Shown here one piece after another: positions 4,368 to 40,427 of a DNA stretch of 64,000 bases. The number at the start of each line of letters is the position of its first letter. Position 1 is the first letter of the stretch. The notes beneath the pieces are model-generated. The model did no database searches, was not told the origin of the DNA, and saw only the letters and a program-made list of their open reading frames with translations. The stretch lies in sequence record PV806337.1, one strand, 5' to 3'. Both the position numbers and the translations under genes were made by a program. This DNA is from a phage.

Positions 4368-5258
4368 TTATACCAAATCTTTAAGCGATTCAGCAACTAA
4401 AATTTCAATACGTTTTGCTAACGTATCGACTTCTTCTTTATTTAAATCACCAGGATCCTTACCCTCTGGAAGTAAGAAGTTAGCAACTACAGGTGTTAAA
4501 CGTGTTTTTGTACGGATTAGTTTAGCCAGTGCTTGCGCAGCTTTATTACCAGAAGCATCATTATCTAGTAAGATAACAACAACTTTTACACCGGCAATAA
4601 TATAAGGACTGAACTTATCTGCAATGTTATCTGAAGTAAACTGATGTGTACCAAAGCAGCAAGAAGTATAGTCTATACCATTATCCTCTAGGTTCAGCAT
4701 ATCAAAGATGCCTTCAACTAGAATAAGAACTGGAGTATTATATCGTACAGGAAAAATTGGCGGTGAAACTTGTTTTGGTTTTACTAAGTATTTAGGAGGG
4801 GCAGAACTGTTTATAGAACGACCCAAAAATAGGATATTGCGTCCAACAGCATCTGTGATTGGGAATACAATTCTGCCTTCCCAGTCTGCTTGGTGTTGGA
4901 AAGCAAAATATTTCTTCAAGGTCTTAGAACTTATACCTCGGAAATCACCTTCGAAAAGGCAAGCAGATTCAGGAATTGCAAGATTCGTTGATCCATTCCT
5001 AATCTCTGAAATCTTTTTACGTACTTGCGATAGCCTTGGGGACTGTCGGTACTGAGTCTCATTAAAATAATGGTAAATGCTCGGTATACCTTTACCGAAG
5101 CCACAACTCAAGCAGTGCATAATACCTGTTTCAGGGTCAATACGCAAACTTGGGTGTTTATCGTCATGATCTGGATTGAGACAACAGATGAGGATGTCCC
5201 CACCTGTGTCTTTATATTCAATGCCTTTCAGATCAAGTAGTTCTGTTATTCTACTCAT
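4368..5258 (-). CDS. DNA primase (DnaG-like: CHC2 zinc finger + Toprim)
   Basis: Zinc finger CCLNPDHDDKHPS...HCLSCG; Toprim Glu (LILVEGIFD) and DxD (ILLDNDASG). Confidence 0.8.
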   Translation of the reverse strand: MSRITELLDLKGIEYKDTGGDILICCLNPDHDDKHPSLRIDPETGIMHCLSCGFGKGIPSIYHYFNETQYRQSPRLSQVRKKISEIRNGSTNLAIPESACLFEGDFRGISSKTLKKYFAFQHQADWEGRIVFPITDAVGRNILFLGRSINSSAPPKYLVKPKQVSPPIFPVRYNTPVLILVEGIFDMLNLEDNGIDYTSCCFGTHQFTSDNIADKFSPYIIAGVKVVVILLDNDASGNKAAQALAKLIRTKTRLTPVVANFLLPEGKDPGDLNKEEVDTLAKRIEILVAESLKDLV

Positions 5259-6778
5259 ATATCGCTGGCCTGTTCACCTGTTGAATTTTCAGTTTTGTCT
5301 TTCTTAGCACGTTTAGGTTGAGCCGGCTTATCCTTCTCAATAGGGATAACGAACTCAGCTTCCATTTGAGATATATCTTCCATTGCTAGATTGGTAGTGT
5401 TATCCATCCGCAGGGTTTCCCAGTTCATTTTAGGCATAAACTTCACGCTATCAGAAGAACGAGTCTTAACGAAGTCAAACATAATAGCACCTTGACCATT
5501 ATCAGCTTTTGCAGCATTAAGATTAGCAGCCATGTCTGCGGAATCAAGAATCCCCTTTGACATACGTGTTCTACCATCTTGATCGATCTGGTAAGGAGCT
5601 ACGCCAGCCACGTTATGTTTCTGGCAGATGGATTTGAAAGACGAGCTAACAACCATCTGTTCTTTCCAGTCATACATATCAATGGTTTTAGAATCTGGAA
5701 GTCGGGTTTGGTTAATATAGTCCAGTAAAGCTACTGTAACTTTATCACCATATCTAGCAACTAATTTATTTAATTCTACGTCAACTGTTGTAATGGACAG
5801 TTCAGGGTCATAAACGATAATCATAGGAGTATGTAGTTCATACCCTTCTATTAGCTTACTCTCCATATCGTAGAAATCACTCATCTTAGCCATTGTATAC
5901 TGTTTAACGAAGTTATCGAAAAGCTCTTCACCACCGTTGAACATTCTAGCTCTAGTTCTGGCTAATCTCAATAGAGCTGCACCTTCTAGAGTATTATTAC
6001 GCATTGCTAGTGCTGATACCCCGGCTAACATGGCTAGATTACGTCTAAATACTTCATGTTCTTTCATCTCAATTGAGAAGTATGGAGCAATATCTCCATT
6101 CAAATATTGCTGAACCTGTATGTTTGAACAGATAATGGATTTACCAGTACCACGCCAACCACCAAGCAGTAACGTTTCTGTGCGAGCTAAACCAATTTGA
6201 GCGTCGAACTCATTACAAATACCAAGAGCGATTAAGTTCAGTTTGGTATCTTCTTCTCTCTGGAAAATACGCATGTTATCTGCGTTGAATACTTTTCCAG
6301 TATTCGTTACTTTCTCTTCTAATTTTAAGTGAAGGGAGGCAACTCGGTTGAGAATTTCTCCCTGATCCAGCATTGTTAAATCTTGAAGCACGTCTGTTTC
6401 TAGAAGCTTCAGGAATAAATCCTGTGTATATTCAGCCTCTAGGACTTCAAGTGCCTGTTCCATGCTCACTTCTGGAATTTGAGTGTTAGCTAAGACGACT
6501 AGAGCTTGAGAAAGGCGGGCGTTCCTATTAGCTTCAAGCATAAGTGCGTCAATGGACGGCATTGTGTTATATTTTTTATAATAATTCTGGACGGCTTGGT
6601 AAATTGAGGAGAAAGCGTCATTAAAATGATCTTTATGCAGTTTTGAGAATGTTTCCAATGCTATTTGCTTCTGTTCGGAAGCTAGAAGCATCTTCAACAC
6701 TACAGCTTGCACGTTAAACAAGGTCATTCTCCTTTGCACGCTTTCGTGCCTTCTAAATGCAAAAAGGGGAAGGAGCAT
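5255..6778 (-). CDS. replicative DNA helicase (DnaB/RecA-fold, 507 aa)
   Basis: Walker A GGWRGTGKS; directly upstream of primase in same operon; strong RBS (AAGGGGAGGGGG) before ATG 6778. Confidence 0.7.
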   Translation of the reverse strand: MLLPLFAFRRHESVQRRMTLFNVQAVVLKMLLASEQKQIALETFSKLHKDHFNDAFSSIYQAVQNYYKKYNTMPSIDALMLEANRNARLSQALVVLANTQIPEVSMEQALEVLEAEYTQDLFLKLLETDVLQDLTMLDQGEILNRVASLHLKLEEKVTNTGKVFNADNMRIFQREEDTKLNLIALGICNEFDAQIGLARTETLLLGGWRGTGKSIICSNIQVQQYLNGDIAPYFSIEMKEHEVFRRNLAMLAGVSALAMRNNTLEGAALLRLARTRARMFNGGEELFDNFVKQYTMAKMSDFYDMESKLIEGYELHTPMIIVYDPELSITTVDVELNKLVARYGDKVTVALLDYINQTRLPDSKTIDMYDWKEQMVVSSSFKSICQKHNVAGVAPYQIDQDGRTRMSKGILDSADMAANLNAAKADNGQGAIMFDFVKTRSSDSVKFMPKMNWETLRMDNTTNLAMEDISQMEAEFVIPIEKDKPAQPKRAKKDKTENSTGEQASDI

Positions 6779-34270: not shown

Positions 34271-34342
34271 TGCCGTCCTAGTATAATTGGTATTATCAAG
34301 CCGTAACTGGTGGAAGATGTAGGTTCGAATCCTACGGTCGGT
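34271..34342 (+). ncRNA. degenerate tRNA-like fragment (T-arm and acceptor only)
   Basis: T-arm GTAGG-TTCGAAT-CCTAC and 6/7-bp acceptor GCCGTCC/GGTCGGT, no convincing anticodon arm, no CCA. Confidence 0.3.
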
Positions 34343-34845
34343 AAGAACTGGATAACTGATGCTTTTAACATAAAAGCTTCCGAGGTTAGTTGCGCACTGC
34401 CTAAACCACGCGGTAGTTGGTTCCAGACTAACCAACCAGTCTGCTGAATAGTTTTATTACGATTTAACTATGTCCAGGCTAAAGAAGAACTTTAGAAGGT
34501 ATTCTAGGATAGTGAAGTTCTTTCTCCATATCGGAGTAGTTTTTCAAGCTATCCACAAAGTGGGAAATGCTGACATGAGAGATGTCACTAATGGTGCACA
34601 ATAGCACAGGTAATTCGCGATAACTCCTGTTGAGTAGCAGCAAAAGGTGGGAAGTCATGACCCCAAGCCTAACCGAGTCCTCAATATACCGCAGGACATA
34701 ACCACTAAGTCACCCTGACTTAAACTGGAAAATAATAGACGTTACTGTATTTTGTCTTGAAATACTTAATGAGTGAGACTTATGACTCTCCCGGTATCGT
34801 CTGTATTTTTAAGAGTTTTTACGAGAGTTCTTAAAAATACTTAAA

Positions 34846-37856: not shown

Positions 37857-37885
37857 TTGCTTGAATGCTAAATTCTCTGTATAAT
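37857..37885 (+). promoter_or_regulatory. T5-type promoter for Toprim gene
   Basis: -35 TTGCTT, 17 bp, -10 TATAAT. Confidence 0.7.
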
Positions 37886-37915
37886 ATATCTATAAATTTG
37901 AGAGAGGAACCAAAT

Positions 37916-38434
37916 ATGAATGTTGATGAGCTAACACAGCACCTCTTATCCAGAGGATTTGATACAGATAAATATCATTGCTGGTTAAGTCCGGAAGGAT
38001 GGCTAACAGTCCCGTTGTATGACTTCTCCGGGATGTTGCGAGGCTATCAGACGTATAATCCTTCTGCTCCAAAAGGTCATGGTAAGTGTCCCTTTGAAGC
38101 TAAATATTTTACTTATTCTACTACCCAGTGTGTATGGGGACTAGAAACTCTCAATGGAGATGAAAAAGTAGTATTGATCGCTGAATCTGTATTTAAGGCA
38201 GTTGCGCTACATAACGCTGGTTATCCAGCCCTGGCAATGTTAGGTTCTTCTCCAGGAAAAGCGTTATTAAAGCAACTGAAATTATTACCTTTTAAATTGG
38301 TAGCTGTCGGAGACAACGATCCTGCGGGTGAAAAATTTGCTAGAAAATTAAACGGCTTTGTTTCTCCCGTAGATGTGGATGAGATGTCTACCGAAAACTT
38401 GAAAAATTTTCTTGCTATGAAGCTAAATTTCTAA
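37916..38434 (+). CDS. Toprim-domain protein (possible RNase M5-like/primase-like nuclease)
   Basis: Toprim Glu (VVLIAESVFKAV) and DxD (AVGDNDPAGEKFARKL); likely start M18 of track ORF. Confidence 0.6.
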   Translation: MNVDELTQHLLSRGFDTDKYHCWLSPEGWLTVPLYDFSGMLRGYQTYNPSAPKGHGKCPFEAKYFTYSTTQCVWGLETLNGDEKVVLIAESVFKAVALHNAGYPALAMLGSSPGKALLKQLKLLPFKLVAVGDNDPAGEKFARKLNGFVSPVDVDEMSTENLKNFLAMKLNF

Positions 38435-38440
38435 TATAAT
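38412..38440 (+). promoter_or_regulatory. T5-type promoter directly upstream of tRNA-Ser
   Basis: -35 TTGCTA, 17 bp, -10 TATAAT; tRNA starts about 16 nt after -10. Confidence 0.65.
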
Positions 38441-38455
38441 ATATCTTATAAATTC

Positions 38456-38544
38456 GGAAGAATAGCATAACGGTATTGCAGCAGATTGCTAATCTGTCGG
38501 TTTGAAATATAGCCTTGTGGGTTCGATTCCCACTTCTTCCGCCA
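38456..38544 (+). tRNA. tRNA-Ser (anticodon GCT), long variable arm
   Basis: Acceptor GGAAGAA/TTCTTCC, anticodon loop TTGCTAA, T-arm GTGGG-TTCGATT-CCCAC, CCA; T5-type promoter directly upstream. Confidence 0.8.
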
Positions 38545-38550
38545 AATTCT

Positions 38551-38628
38551 GGTTCTCAAGCTCATATGGTATGAGCACCCGGCTCATAACCGGAAGGTAC
38601 GTAGGTTCGAATCCTCGGGGAGCCACCA
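38551..38628 (+). tRNA. tRNA with CAT anticodon (Met/fMet/Ile2), non-canonical T-stem
   Basis: Acceptor GGTTCTC/GGGAGCC with G-U pairs; anticodon loop CTCATAA; T-loop TTCGAAT with bulged stem; CCA. Confidence 0.55.
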
Positions 38629-38846: not shown

Positions 38847-39032
38847 ATGTCCAAGTTTCAAGAACTCAAGCAAGAGCTAGAAGAATGTGCCTGCCCTGAG
38901 TGTAGGGGAATTGGTGAAAGTTCTGATGCAGAAGCAGGAGATACTTTTTGCAATATCTGGATTTGTTCAAATTGCAACGGTACAGGTATTAATCCTAACT
39001 GCGGTGTTTCCCTAGATATTGAACGAGGATAA
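38847..39032 (+). CDS. small Cys-rich zinc-ribbon-like protein (61 aa)
   Basis: CPECRG...CNIWICSNCNGTG; RBS AAGGAG. Confidence 0.5.
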   Translation: MSKFQELKQELEECACPECRGIGESSDAEAGDTFCNIWICSNCNGTGINPNCGVSLDIERG

Positions 39033-39225: not shown

Positions 39226-39393
39226 ATGTATAGACATCCACCTCCGCCAACACGTCGTTCTAGGGAAGTCATCCTTATGGAATTGACTAAAAACTTCAAG
39301 GCAACTCTTGAAGATAGAGATTTAGGCACGGATGAAGACATTGATTTTATTTGTAGACTATTAAAGATGAAACTGGAGAAACAACATGGCTAA
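39226..39393 (+). CDS. hypothetical small protein (55 aa)
   Basis: ATG 11 nt after RBS AAGGAA; stop overlaps next start (ATGGCTAA). Confidence 0.4.
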   Translation: MYRHPPPPTRRSREVILMELTKNFKATLEDRDLGTDEDIDFICRLLKMKLEKQHG

Positions 39394-39592
39394 TCCTGAA
39401 ATTACCGCACAACGTTTCATGCTTAAAGGCATGATTGCTGAAGCAGGTATGACTCAAGAGGTTGCAGACTTTCATAAGCAATTTCTTGATATTATAACTC
39501 TAGCTAAAGAGACTGGAGAAAGAGAACACGGTGCAGCAATTATGGCTATATCTCTTATTAGCCTAGACTTAGCTGAAGAATCTGGAATTTAG
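39386..39592 (+). CDS. hypothetical protein (68 aa)
   Basis: Track ORF. Confidence 0.5.
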   Translation: MANPEITAQRFMLKGMIAEAGMTQEVADFHKQFLDIITLAKETGEREHGAAIMAISLISLDLAEESGI

Positions 39593-39682: not shown

Positions 39683-39958
39683 ATGCAAAATCGTGTTGTA
39701 GCAACTGGTATTGAAAGTGCAATCTGTAAATCCTGGGAAGGCTGGGAAGGTGAGATTGAATGGCTTTATTTCTATGATGTAGAACTTCTACCGGAAGTTA
39801 AAGCTAAATGTGTTGAAGCTGGCATGGCTCCAGATGCAAAAGCTGATATTGATATTTCAATGTCTGAACTTAAAGGTCGTGTAATTACTGTTAGTGATGA
39901 GGGCGAAGAAGTCTTCGAACTTCCATTCTCCTTAACTGTCACTCCTAAGTTCGACTAA
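39683..39958 (+). CDS. hypothetical protein (91 aa)
   Basis: Track ORF with promoter and RBS AAGGAG. Confidence 0.55.
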   Translation: MQNRVVATGIESAICKSWEGWEGEIEWLYFYDVELLPEVKAKCVEAGMAPDAKADIDISMSELKGRVITVSDEGEEVFELPFSLTVTPKFD

Positions 39959-40352: not shown

Positions 40353-40427
40353 GCACCTTTAGCTGAGATGGATTAGCGCTTGCCTGAAGAGCTTGAGAGG
40401 TTGGATCGTTACCAACGGGGTGCTCCA
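40353..40427 (+). tRNA. tRNA-like, possibly Phe (anticodon GAA), non-canonical T-loop
   Basis: Acceptor GCACCTT/GGGGTGC, D-arm GCTG...TAGC, anticodon loop CTGAAGA with mismatched stem, T-arm GTTGG-ATCGTTA-CCAAC, CCA. Confidence 0.45.

What the first reader, a model, noticed from the sequence alone, without database searches (positions are those of the whole stretch)
37916..38544. Toprim-domain protein at the head of the tRNA array
A 172-aa ORF with Toprim catalytic signatures (conserved Glu and DxD) but no primase zinc finger or helicase partner lies immediately upstream of the first promoter-tRNA unit. Stand-alone Toprim proteins include RNase M5 and OLD-type nucleases, so this could be a phage-encoded RNA processing or nicking enzyme.
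Basis: partly seen in the sequence, partly recalled or inferred. Interest (0 to 1): 0.5.

Follow-up and report, generated by a model that had tools for sequence, protein, structure and literature searches.

The report
Known phage T5 anti-retron protein Rad
This ORF is the already described T5-family gene rad (T5.076 / SP15 ORF75), a zinc-finger-less copy of a DNA-primase catalytic core that lets the phage escape bacterial retron immunity; it is not a new tRNA-processing enzyme.

Summary
The ORF is real: 37916-38434 (+), 172 aa. The finding's end, 38544, is the end of the next tRNA-Ser. The window is a T5-like phage. The protein is 100% identical to phage SP15 ORF75 and 97% identical to T5.076. 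That gene was annotated in 2004 as a "putative DNA primase-related protein". In 2023-24 it was shown to be the determinant that lets T5-like phages evade retrons, and it was named Rad.

A complete primase with a zinc ribbon sits elsewhere in the window beside a DnaB-like helicase, and rad is deletable, so it is not the replicative primase.

A preprint reports that Rad lowers retron ncRNA and msDNA. The peer-reviewed paper leaves the mechanism open.

Verdict: already known, with the biochemistry unresolved. Side observations: relatives are fused to CCA-adding enzymes or lie in tRNA arrays and RNA-repair cassettes, and the family shows an active-site covariation (K94/D155).

The parts
37857..37885 (+). 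Early promoter P15a: -35 TTGCTT (37857-37862), 17-nt spacer, -10 TATAAT (37880-37885). The ATG at 37865 that gives the 189-aa annotation lies inside this spacer.
   Evidence: Read directly from the sequence. Promoter P15a is annotated at the equivalent position in AJ604531 and NC_005859. The simple scan missed it because the -35 matches only 3 of 6 positions.
37904..37908 (+). Ribosome-binding site GAGGA, 7 nt upstream of the ATG at 37916.
   Evidence: Sequence. A ribosome-binding site for 'ORF trn 2.1' is annotated at the same place in AJ604531.
37916..38434 (+). rad coding sequence (172 aa plus stop). It equals T5.076, 'ORF trn 2.1', SP15 ORF75 (E0157_075) and ORF071 of AY587007. The protein is a zinc-finger-less DnaG-type primase catalytic core.
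37916..38161 (+). Residues 1-82: the primase-specific N-terminal subdomain. It contains the helix 'HLLSRGF' (R13), 'GYQTY' (G43, Q45, Y47) and 'KYFT' (K63, Y64).
   Evidence: hhalign of family alignment A2 against the window's own canonical primase aligns residues 28-169 across DnaG motifs II-VI (probability 96.5%, E 7.9e-10). Conservation table. Model secondary structure. That 'HLLSRGF' corresponds to the RG-containing helix at the start of the T7 and DnaG polymerase domains is my reading of the sequences, not a scored alignment.
38162..38395 (+). Residues 83-160: the Toprim subdomain. E90 sits in 'AESVFK' (canonical EGxxD, with S91 and K94). D133-N-D135 is motif V. D153-V-D155-E156 is motif VI.
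   Evidence: Pfam Toprim_2 covers residues 88-149. T7 E157 and D207/D209 align to E90 and D133/D135. Family conservation and the covariation of residues 94 and 155.
38412..38440 (+). Promoter P15b: TTGCTA, 17-nt spacer, TATAAT. Its -35 lies inside the 3' end of rad and its -10 begins directly after the stop codon. No terminator-like site lies between rad and the tRNAs.
   Evidence: Scan match 10 of 12. Annotated as P15b in AJ604531 and T5.
38456..38544 (+). tRNA-Ser(GCU), the first tRNA of the main array. The finding's end coordinate is the end of this gene.
   Evidence: ARAGORN. Rfam 60.5 bits.
38551..38625 (+). Second tRNA of the unit, anticodon CAU. It is annotated tRNA-Ile2 in T5 and phage 5.
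   Evidence: Missed by ARAGORN. Rfam tRNA 40.3 bits. Annotated tRNAI2 in AJ604531 and NC_005859.

Best explanation
The ORF is rad (retron anti-defense), an early gene of T5-like phages.

Shown by sequence and structure prediction: it is transcribed from the strong early promoter P15a at the head of the tRNA-rich region. It encodes a 172-aa protein consisting of nothing but the RNA-polymerase domain of a DnaG/T7-type primase, that is, the N-terminal subdomain plus the Toprim subdomain. It lacks the zinc-binding domain that reads the template and it lacks any helicase-binding part.

Shown by published experiments on the identical SP15 protein: it is the genetic determinant that lets the phage plate on cells carrying retrons Eco2 (Ec67) and Eco7 (Ec78). 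At preprint level only, it also works against Ec83, Ec48 and Se72, and its expression lowers retron msDNA and msr-msd ncRNA but not the RT or effector mRNA.

Inferred: the conserved metal-binding acidic cluster of the Toprim centre (E90, D133, D135, D153, D155, E156) acts on a nucleic-acid component common to retrons. The most likely mode is cleavage or destabilisation of the structured msr-msd ncRNA, so that no msDNA-RT-effector complex is formed.

My estimates: identity with Rad about 0.97; anti-retron role about 0.9; catalytic attack on the ncRNA about 0.4-0.5.
For: Identity:
- tblastn gives 100% identity over 172 aa to SP15 (AP019559, locus tag E0157_075, annotated as 189 aa from the upstream ATG) and 97.1% to T5.076.
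- The residues mutated in the preprint (R13, P33, I88, D135, E156) fall exactly on those residues in the 172-aa numbering.

Function (literature):
- bioRxiv 10.1101/2023.03.15.532788.
- Nat Commun 2024, PMC11555353: ORF75 is the determinant for evading Eco2 and Eco7.
- PMC10644984: 'previously annotated as primase ... later established as Rad'.
- PMC12673091: SP15m lacks Rad and tRNA-Tyr.

Fold:
- AlphaFold2 mean pLDDT 89.3.
- Foldseek top 39 hits are all DnaG, T7 gp4, Twinkle or T4 gp61.
- The family profile hits only DnaG primases among PDB sequences at E below 1e-3.
- hhalign to the window's own primase gives 96.5% probability.

Active site under selection:
- E90, D135 and D153 are kept in at least 90% of 118-119 relatives, and D133 in 88%.
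- Residue 94 covaries with residue 155, which keeps the number of acidic residues constant: 46 of 46 against 6 of 68.

Not the replicative primase:
- A complete primase (zinc ribbon, DnaG_N and Toprim) lies at 4368-5258 (-) next to a DnaB-like helicase.
- Phages with 8-kb or 4-kb deletions that remove rad are viable.
Against: - The mechanistic part rests on one preprint. [quoted passage not shown]
- Lower ncRNA and msDNA levels were measured in vivo (gel and qPCR). No in vitro nuclease activity has been reported.
- Single substitutions of putative metal ligands (D135H, E156H) only reduced activity; double mutants were needed to abolish it. That is weak behaviour for a strictly catalytic mechanism.
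- A T5 isolate carrying ORF75 did not evade a related type I-A retron, FORC 82, so the target is not universal among retrons.
- The fold is that of a nucleotidyl-transferase, not of a known RNase.
Confidence: 0.6

Rival explanations
1. Rad blocks retrons without catalysis. As a zinc-finger-less primase core it binds single-stranded or structured nucleic acid, either msDNA or the RT-bound msr-msd RNA. This prevents priming, reverse transcription or complex assembly. The drop in ncRNA and msDNA is then secondary turnover by host nucleases.
For: - Single changes at D135 and E156 only weaken activity.
- The authors withdrew the degradation claim in the published paper.
- In the T5 clade the canonical EGxxD motif is ESxxK.
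Against: - All Toprim acidic residues are kept across a very diverse family.
- The coupling of K94 with D155 looks like the maintenance of a metal site rather than its decay.
- The histidine substitutions used in the preprint might still bind metal.
Confidence: 0.25
2. One reading: a phage RNase, or another RNA-end enzyme, that serves the tRNA array itself. It would process precursor tRNAs, or belong to a tRNA repair or maintenance pathway.
For: - rad is probably co-transcribed with tRNA-Ser and tRNA-Ile2, because no terminator lies between them.
- Relatives sit inside same-strand tRNA arrays in Providencia phage PR1 and in 6 of 80 IMG/VR loci, which fall in 4 sequence clusters.
- Relatives are fused to CCA-adding enzyme domains (P0072, P0098) or to a HAD phosphatase (P0107).
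- A relative lies directly after a tRNA nucleotidyltransferase gene in Vibrio phages.
- Relatives lie beside an Rnl1-type RNA ligase, an AAA_33 kinase, phosphatases and a Ro-like protein in one or two environmental lineages.
Against: - Rad expressed alone from a plasmid rescues phages whose 8-kb tRNA region is deleted. It also acts on retrons whose effectors, as I recall, do not target tRNA (Ec48, Se72); the effector types are background knowledge, not checked here.
- Similarity to RNase M5 is limited to the Toprim half.
- The RNA-repair neighbourhood is confined to one or two lineages, and no matched control was run.
- tRNA-rich regions of T5-like phages are anti-defence islands, so co-location may reflect shared counter-defence use rather than shared chemistry.
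Confidence: 0.08
3. It is a second, auxiliary DNA primase that makes primers without sequence-specific template recognition.
For: - The primase catalytic fold is complete and motifs II-VI align.
- RefSeq and PHROG name it 'DNA primase'.
- In Kagunavirus the 47%-identical homologue lies in the replication module directly after a helicase gene, and no other primase is annotated in the roughly 10 kb examined.
Against: - There is no zinc-binding domain and no helicase-binding part.
- The Kagunavirus helicase is of the SNF2 type, not DnaB-like, and has no zinc finger.
- The phage has its own full primase next to a DnaB-like helicase.
- The gene is dispensable for growth.
- K94 replaces the second acidic residue of EGxxD.
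- None of the 20 longer family members examined carries a helicase or CHC2 zinc-ribbon domain.
Confidence: 0.05
4. It is the site-specific nickase that makes the single-strand interruptions of T5-type genomes.
For: Toprim enzymes cut phosphodiester bonds. An annotated major nick site lies about 2 kb away in T5.
Against: The sequenced BF23 strain lacks the gene because of a 4-kb deletion, and the same paper describes BF23 as carrying multiple specific nicks like T5. There is no similarity to known nicking enzymes.
Confidence: 0.02

Closest known systems
Rad / ORF75 of Escherichia phage SP15 and T5.076 of phage T5 (retron anti-defense protein; Azam et al. 2023 preprint and Nat Commun 2024)
   Same: The amino-acid sequence is identical to SP15 and 97.1% identical to T5. 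The position is the same, between promoters P15a and P15b at the head of the tRNA-rich region. The mutated residues have the same numbering.
   Different: Nothing of substance. The SP15 record starts the gene 17 codons upstream (189 aa), at an ATG that lies inside the promoter spacer.
RNA-polymerase domain of DnaG-type primases (T7 gp4 residues about 64-255, E. coli, Aquifex and B. subtilis DnaG cores, T4 gp61, Twinkle primase-like domain)
   Different: There is no zinc-binding domain and no helicase-interaction domain or fused helicase. The motif is ESxxK instead of EGxxD, with an extra Asp (D155) in motif VI. No Arg/Lys occupies the position aligned with the motif II Arg of the window's own primase (Y47; next residue N48). 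Sequence identity is only 12-24%. The gene is dispensable and has a counter-defence phenotype.
PHROG 849 ('DNA primase'), i.e. the Rad-like family of roughly 165-190-aa stand-alone phage proteins
   Same: Full-length match at E 2.5e-62. The representative search found 855 clusters at E up to 1e-3, and most of the best 150 are stand-alone proteins of this size.
   Different: The family name comes from homology only. Members occur in very different settings: after an SNF2 helicase in Kagunavirus, in tRNA arrays, in RNA-repair cassettes, fused to CCA-adding enzyme, Mom, Arr, GNAT, ParB_N or HAD domains, and split into two ORFs in jumbo Erwinia phages.
RNase M5 (Toprim RNase that matures 5S rRNA)
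   Same: The Toprim subdomain is shared, with Glu and DxD. The idea of a Toprim centre cutting structured RNA is the nearest precedent for the proposed ncRNA degradation.
OLD-family and related defence Toprim nucleases (P2 Old, GajA, PARIS AriB, the retron-Eco2 RT-Toprim effector)
   Same: They share Toprim catalytic chemistry and take part in phage-host conflict. One of Rad's targets, retron Eco2, itself uses a Toprim effector.
   Different: Rad has no ABC ATPase or other partner domain. PADLOC gives no OLD, Gabija or PARIS hit; its only hit is a DRT-associated DnaG-like model (E 5.3e-7) over the Toprim part. These are host defence proteins, whereas Rad is a phage counter-defence protein.

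Membership tests
Rad (retron anti-defense; SP15 ORF75 / T5.076) | Sequence identity with the experimentally tested protein | tested here: met
   100% over 172 aa to SP15 (AP019559) and 97.1% to T5 (NC_005859). The mutated residues R13, P33, I88, D135 and E156 match the 172-aa numbering.
Rad (retron anti-defense; SP15 ORF75 / T5.076) | Same locus: between early promoters P15a and P15b, upstream of tRNA-Ser(GCU) and tRNA-Ile2, inside the deletable tRNA-rich region | tested here: met
   Annotations of AJ604531, NC_005859 and AP019559 compared with the window. Promoter sequences.
Rad (retron anti-defense; SP15 ORF75 / T5.076) | Neutralises retron defence (Eco2, Eco7) when expressed | not testable with these tools
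   Taken from the literature on the identical protein. It did not help against the FORC 82 retron.
DnaG-type DNA primase | CHC2 zinc-binding domain for template recognition | tested here: not met
   No Zn_ribbon_DnaG hit and no CxxC pair; the protein has three Cys in all. The window's true primase does have it (PF01807, E 1.5e-6).
DnaG-type DNA primase | RNA-polymerase-domain fold: N-terminal subdomain plus Toprim | tested here: met
DnaG-type DNA primase | Full set of catalytic acidic residues (EGxxD, DxD, distal D) | tested here: inconclusive
   E90, D133, D135 and D153 are present and conserved. The second acid of EGxxD is Lys (K94) and the Gly is Ser (S91). An extra D155 covaries with K94.
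DnaG-type DNA primase | Helicase-binding domain or fused/adjacent replicative helicase | tested here: not met
   The protein ends about 12 residues after motif VI. The neighbours are tRNAs and a divergent gene cluster. The DnaB-like helicase lies 31 kb away beside the real primase.
DnaG-type DNA primase | Template-directed oligoribonucleotide synthesis | not testable with these tools
   No published assay was found in the library searched.
RNase M5 | N-terminal Toprim plus a C-terminal 5S rRNA/uL18-binding domain, with sequence membership in the family | tested here: not met
   No RNase M5 model hit in NCBIfam or Pfam at E up to 10. Structural overlap is limited to 83-100 residues of the Toprim half.
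OLD-family nucleases (including GajA and AriB) | ABC-ATPase (or DUF4435) module coupled to the Toprim domain | tested here: not met
   The 172-aa protein is entirely accounted for by the primase core. PADLOC gives no OLD, Gabija or PARIS hit at E up to 10.
PHROG 849 | Significant full-length profile match | tested here: met
   E 2.5e-62, residues 3-167 against profile positions 146-337. The longer family members match the same profile segment.

The most novel reading that the evidence does not exclude
The Rad family as a whole (PHROG 849; 855 representative clusters) may not be 'DNA primases'. It may instead be a class of primase-core enzymes that work on RNA in phage counter-defence, linked to tRNA supply and repair. 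On that reading, anti-retron activity would be one instance of a broader RNA-directed activity, and the K94/D155 versus D94/G155 active-site types would mark two chemistries.

Support for this reading:
- Fusions to CCA-adding enzyme, HAD phosphatase and a cytidylyltransferase-like domain.
- Adjacency to a tRNA nucleotidyltransferase gene in Vibrio phages.
- Location inside tRNA arrays in T5, in Providencia phage PR1 and in IMG/VR loci from four further sequence clusters.
- Co-location with an Rnl1-type ligase, a Pnk-like kinase, phosphatases and a Ro-like protein.
Probability: 0.15. Interest if true: 0.6.

Novelty: already known. Interest (0 to 1): 0.25.

Why it matters
For the scan, this finding can be closed. 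The ORF is a named, experimentally supported anti-defence gene of T5-like phages, not a new system.

What remains open is the biochemistry: how a zinc-finger-less primase catalytic core disables retrons. Answering it would give the first mechanism of a protein inhibitor acting on a retron's nucleic-acid component. It would also correct the 'DNA primase' label carried by hundreds of phage records.

The context data gathered here (tRNA arrays, CCA-adding-enzyme fusions, RNA-repair cassettes, the 94/155 covariation) give concrete mutants and substrates to test.

Tried and rejected
- Single-sequence phmmer against PDB sequences gave only chance hits such as xylanases (E at least 0.24). The family profile was needed.
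- BLASTP of Rad against the window's canonical primase was not significant (E 0.089, matching only around DND). The relationship appears only at profile or fold level.
- The word-indexed homologue search returned only 6 proteins. The exhaustive representative search was needed.
- I looked for a zinc finger supplied in trans. The Kagunavirus helicase upstream of the homologue is of the SNF2 type with no zinc-finger or zinc-ribbon Pfam domain. The 45-aa ORF downstream looks like a coiled coil and has no Cys. The window's 61-aa CxxCxGxG ORF (38847-39032) has no Pfam hit, and nothing links it to Rad.
- RNase M5 and OLD membership were tested and rejected.
- The 189-aa start codon was rejected. Its ATG (37865) lies between the -35 and -10 of P15a. 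Most relatives start at the position of M1, and the published mutant numbering fits 172 aa.
- Correlation of residue 48 (R versus N) with residue 94 was weak and was not pursued.
- The RNA-repair neighbourhood looked striking, but it collapses to one or two lineages when Rad sequences are clustered at 55-70% identity. I therefore treat it as a lead only.
- No follow-up paper on the Rad mechanism was found in the library.

Full report
**1. What is at the coordinates**

The window carries an ORF from the ATG at 37916 to the stop at 38432-38434 on the + strand (172 aa). A GAGGA ribosome-binding site lies 7 nt upstream. The finding's end coordinate, 38544, is the end of the following tRNA-Ser(GCU) gene at 38456-38544.

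The mechanical ORF list extends the frame to an ATG at 37865 (189 aa). That codon lies between the -35 (TTGCTT, 37857-37862) and the -10 (TATAAT, 37880-37885) of the upstream promoter, so it cannot be on the promoter's transcript. A second promoter (TTGCTA-17-TATAAT, 38412-38440) overlaps the 3' end of the ORF and precedes the tRNA. No terminator-like site separates the ORF from the tRNAs.

**2. Where the window comes from**

The region is 92-95% covered at 95-97% identity by many T5-like phages (Tequintavirus).

- The protein is 100% identical in 40 or more records, including Escherichia phage SP15, and 97.1% identical to T5.
- In the curated record AJ604531 (tRNA gene region of "bacteriophage 5") the gene is "ORF trn 2.1; putative DNA primase-related protein", flanked by promoters P15a and P15b.
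- In T5 RefSeq it is T5.076, "DNA primase", named from an InterPro Toprim match.

**3. It is Rad**

A 2023 preprint (10.1101/2023.03.15.532788) screened fragments of an 8-kb region that is missing from the spontaneous mutants T5n and SP15m. It found that SP15 ORF75 rescues the mutants from retrons Ec67 (Eco2), Ec78 (Eco7) and Ec83, and rescues lambda vir from Ec48 and Se72. The authors named it Rad and described it as a 189-aa protein with a "primase/helicase and TOPRIM/RNase domain".

- SP15 locus tag E0157_075 is the 189-aa reading of exactly this ORF.
- The residues they mutated (R13E, P33T, I88T, D135H, E156H) are exactly R13, P33, I88, D135 and E156 in the 172-aa numbering.
- The peer-reviewed paper (PMC11555353) keeps the genetic result: ORF75 is the determinant for evading Eco2 and Eco7. 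[quoted passage not shown]
- Independent papers use the assignment. [quoted passage not shown] PMC12673091 says SP15m lacks Rad and tRNA-Tyr.
- PMC12475279 reports that a T5 isolate carrying ORF75 does not evade the FORC 82 type I-A retron.
- I found no later mechanistic study in the library.

**4. What kind of protein it is**

The Toprim signature is real.

- Pfam Toprim_2 scores above its threshold.
- Among 118-119 stand-alone relatives, E90, D135 and D153 are kept in at least 90%, and D133 in 88%.

But Toprim is only the C-terminal half.

- AlphaFold2 gives a confident model (mean pLDDT 89.3).
- Foldseek gives the same order.
- A profile of the family hits only DnaG primases among all PDB sequences at E below 1e-3 (E 1e-6 to 8e-4).
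- hhalign against the window's own canonical primase gives 96.5% probability over residues 28-169 and lines up motifs II-VI.
- hhalign against T7 gp4 puts E90 on E157 and D133/D135 on D207/D209.
- By eye, the N-terminal helix "HLLSRGF" (R13 nearly invariant) resembles the "ARGIS" and "RGL" helices that open the T7 and DnaG polymerase domains.

What is missing:

- There is no CHC2 zinc ribbon.
- There is nothing after motif VI that could bind a helicase.
- NCBIfam and PADLOC give no RNase M5, OLD, Gabija or PARIS hit. PADLOC's only hit is a DRT-associated DnaG-like model over the Toprim part.

So the protein is a bare primase RNA-polymerase domain, not an RNase M5- or OLD-like Toprim protein.

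**5. It is not the replicative primase**

- The window holds a complete primase at 4368-5258 (-). It has Zn_ribbon_DnaG, DnaG_N and Toprim domains and overlaps the end of a DnaB-like helicase gene at 5255-6778 (-). These correspond to T5 pri and D6.
- Rad and this primase are not detectably similar by BLASTP.
- rad lies in a region lost without loss of viability in T5n, SP15m and a sequenced BF23 strain.
- The same BF23 paper describes BF23 as carrying specific nicks like T5, which argues against a role as the genome nickase.

**6. Peculiarities of the active site**

In the T5 clade the canonical EGxxD motif reads ESVFK (S91, K94), and motif VI reads D153-V-D155-E156.

Across 119 stand-alone relatives, residue 94 is D/E in 68 and K/R in 46. 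All 46 K/R members have D/E at position 155, against 6 of the 68 D/E members (Fisher p about 1e-25, not corrected for phylogeny). The number of acidic residues is therefore kept constant, which argues for a working metal site rather than a decayed one.

The Arg of DnaG motif II has no clear counterpart. In the hhalign to the window's own primase, the nearly invariant Y47 falls on that primase's motif II Arg. The next residue is N48 in T5 Rad and R in about a third of the family.

**7. Mechanism**

Shown by others: expression of the identical protein blocks several retrons. At preprint level, it lowers msDNA and msr-msd RNA but not the RT or effector mRNA.

Inferred: the Toprim centre attacks or destabilises the retron ncRNA. 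I put this at 0.4-0.5, for three reasons.

- No in vitro activity has been reported.
- Single D135H and E156H mutants are only weakened.
- The published paper withdrew the claim.

The main rival (0.25) is non-catalytic binding of msDNA or of the RT-ncRNA complex. An auxiliary primase (0.05), a tRNA-directed enzyme (0.08) and a nickase (0.02) are less likely, for the reasons given under the rival explanations.

**8. The wider family**

- The exhaustive search found 855 representative clusters at E up to 1e-3. Most of the best 150 are stand-alone proteins of 165-190 aa.
- PHROG 849 ("DNA primase") is essentially this family. Longer members always match the same profile segment.
- None of the 20 longer members examined has a helicase or CHC2 domain. 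Their partners are CCA-adding-enzyme domains (P0072, P0098), a HAD phosphatase (P0107), a cytidylyltransferase-like domain (P0054), Mom (P0090), Arr ADP-ribosyltransferase (P0023; with GNAT in P0065), ParB_N (P0081) and a DUF3268 zinc-finger domain (P0061).
- In Vibrio phages the gene follows a tRNA nucleotidyltransferase gene.
- In Providencia phage PR1 it lies in the tRNA region.
- In Kagunavirus it follows an SNF2 helicase in the replication module.
- In jumbo Erwinia phages it is annotated as two 87-aa ORFs.
- Among 80 IMG/VR loci, 6 have the gene inside same-strand tRNA arrays; these fall in 4 sequence clusters.
- One or two lineages place it a few genes from an Rnl1-type RNA ligase (PHROG 562, E 7e-47), an AAA_33 kinase, DSP and calcineurin-type phosphatases and a Ro-like RNA-binding protein.

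These associations hint at an RNA- or tRNA-related counter-defence role for the family. They are lineage-limited and have no matched control, so I report them as leads.

**9. Verdict**

- The gene is already known as Rad. Interest for the scan is low. The unresolved biochemistry and the family context carry the remaining value.

Noticed in passing
window 38551-38625 (+): ARAGORN did not report a tRNA with anticodon CAU that lies directly after tRNA-Ser. Rfam scores it at 40.3 bits, and T5 and phage 5 annotate it as tRNA-Ile2. Its acceptor stem contains two G-U pairs.
   Followed up: yes
window 34272-34343 (+) and 40353-40424 (+): Rfam finds two further tRNA-model hits that ARAGORN missed (35.5 and 31.5 bits). 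The first lies in the region that T5 annotates as 'RNAX, stable RNA with unknown functions', upstream of tRNA-Arg. The second is at the position of T5 tRNA-Phe.
   Followed up: partly
window 39386-39592 (+) and 39683-39958 (+): By position and length, these 68-aa and 91-aa ORFs correspond to SP15 E0157_072 and E0157_071. The 2023 preprint reports that two small ORFs of this fragment (numbered 71/72 in its text and 72/73 in a legend) together neutralise retron Ec83. I did not check sequence identity.
   Followed up: partly
window 38847-39032 (+): A 61-aa ORF carries two CxxCxGxG motifs (CPECRGIG and CSNCNGTG), which resemble a DnaJ-type zinc finger. It has no Pfam hit. One T5-like record labels it 'antitermination protein Q'. 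T5 itself has the HNH endonuclease hegA at this locus.
   Followed up: partly
window 4368-5258 (-) and 5255-6778 (-): The canonical primase (zinc ribbon, DnaG_N, Toprim; 296 aa) overlaps by 4 nt the end of the DnaB-like helicase gene. In T5 the homing endonuclease gene hegJ (T5.120) sits between these two genes; it is absent here.
   Followed up: partly
Rad family alignment (window residues 94 and 155; codons at 38195-38197 and 38378-38380): There is strong covariation in the family. K/R at position 94 always occurs with D/E at position 155 (46 of 46). Members with D/E at 94 mostly have G or another residue at 155 (62 of 68). T5 Rad is of the K94/D155 type. The test was not corrected for phylogeny.
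   Followed up: partly
proteins P0072, P0098, P0107, P0054, P0090, P0023, P0065, P0081, P0061; locus L008 3703-5537: Rad-like domains are fused to CCA-adding enzyme, HAD phosphatase, a cytidylyltransferase-like domain, Mom, Arr, GNAT, ParB_N or a DUF3268 zinc-finger domain. In Vibrio phage F102 the Rad-like ORF overlaps the end of a tRNA nucleotidyltransferase gene. None of the 20 longer members examined has a helicase or CHC2 domain.
   Followed up: partly
loci L051, L062, L088, L045, L070 (IMG/VR), within 6 kb of the Rad-like ORF: These environmental phage loci show a recurring gene order: Rnl1-type RNA ligase, DSP phosphatase, AAA_33 kinase, a GNAT/MCD-like protein, then the Rad-like ORF. 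Some also have a calcineurin-type phosphoesterase, a Ro/TROVE-like protein (PHROG 850) and an HD phosphohydrolase. This looks like an RNA-repair cassette, but it is confined to one or two lineages.
   Followed up: partly
locus L005 3989-4502 (Erwinia phage Alexandra) and other jumbo Erwinia and Dickeya phages: The Rad homologue is annotated as two consecutive, overlapping 87-aa ORFs, and tblastn matches it in two pieces. This could be a frameshift, a split gene or a decayed copy.
   Followed up: no
window 37916-38431, PADLOC scan: The only defence-library hit is 'RTasDnaG-like' (a DnaG-like protein associated with defence reverse transcriptases; E 5.3e-7, Toprim part only). DnaG-like cores therefore occur on both sides of reverse-transcriptase-based phage-host conflicts.
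   Followed up: no
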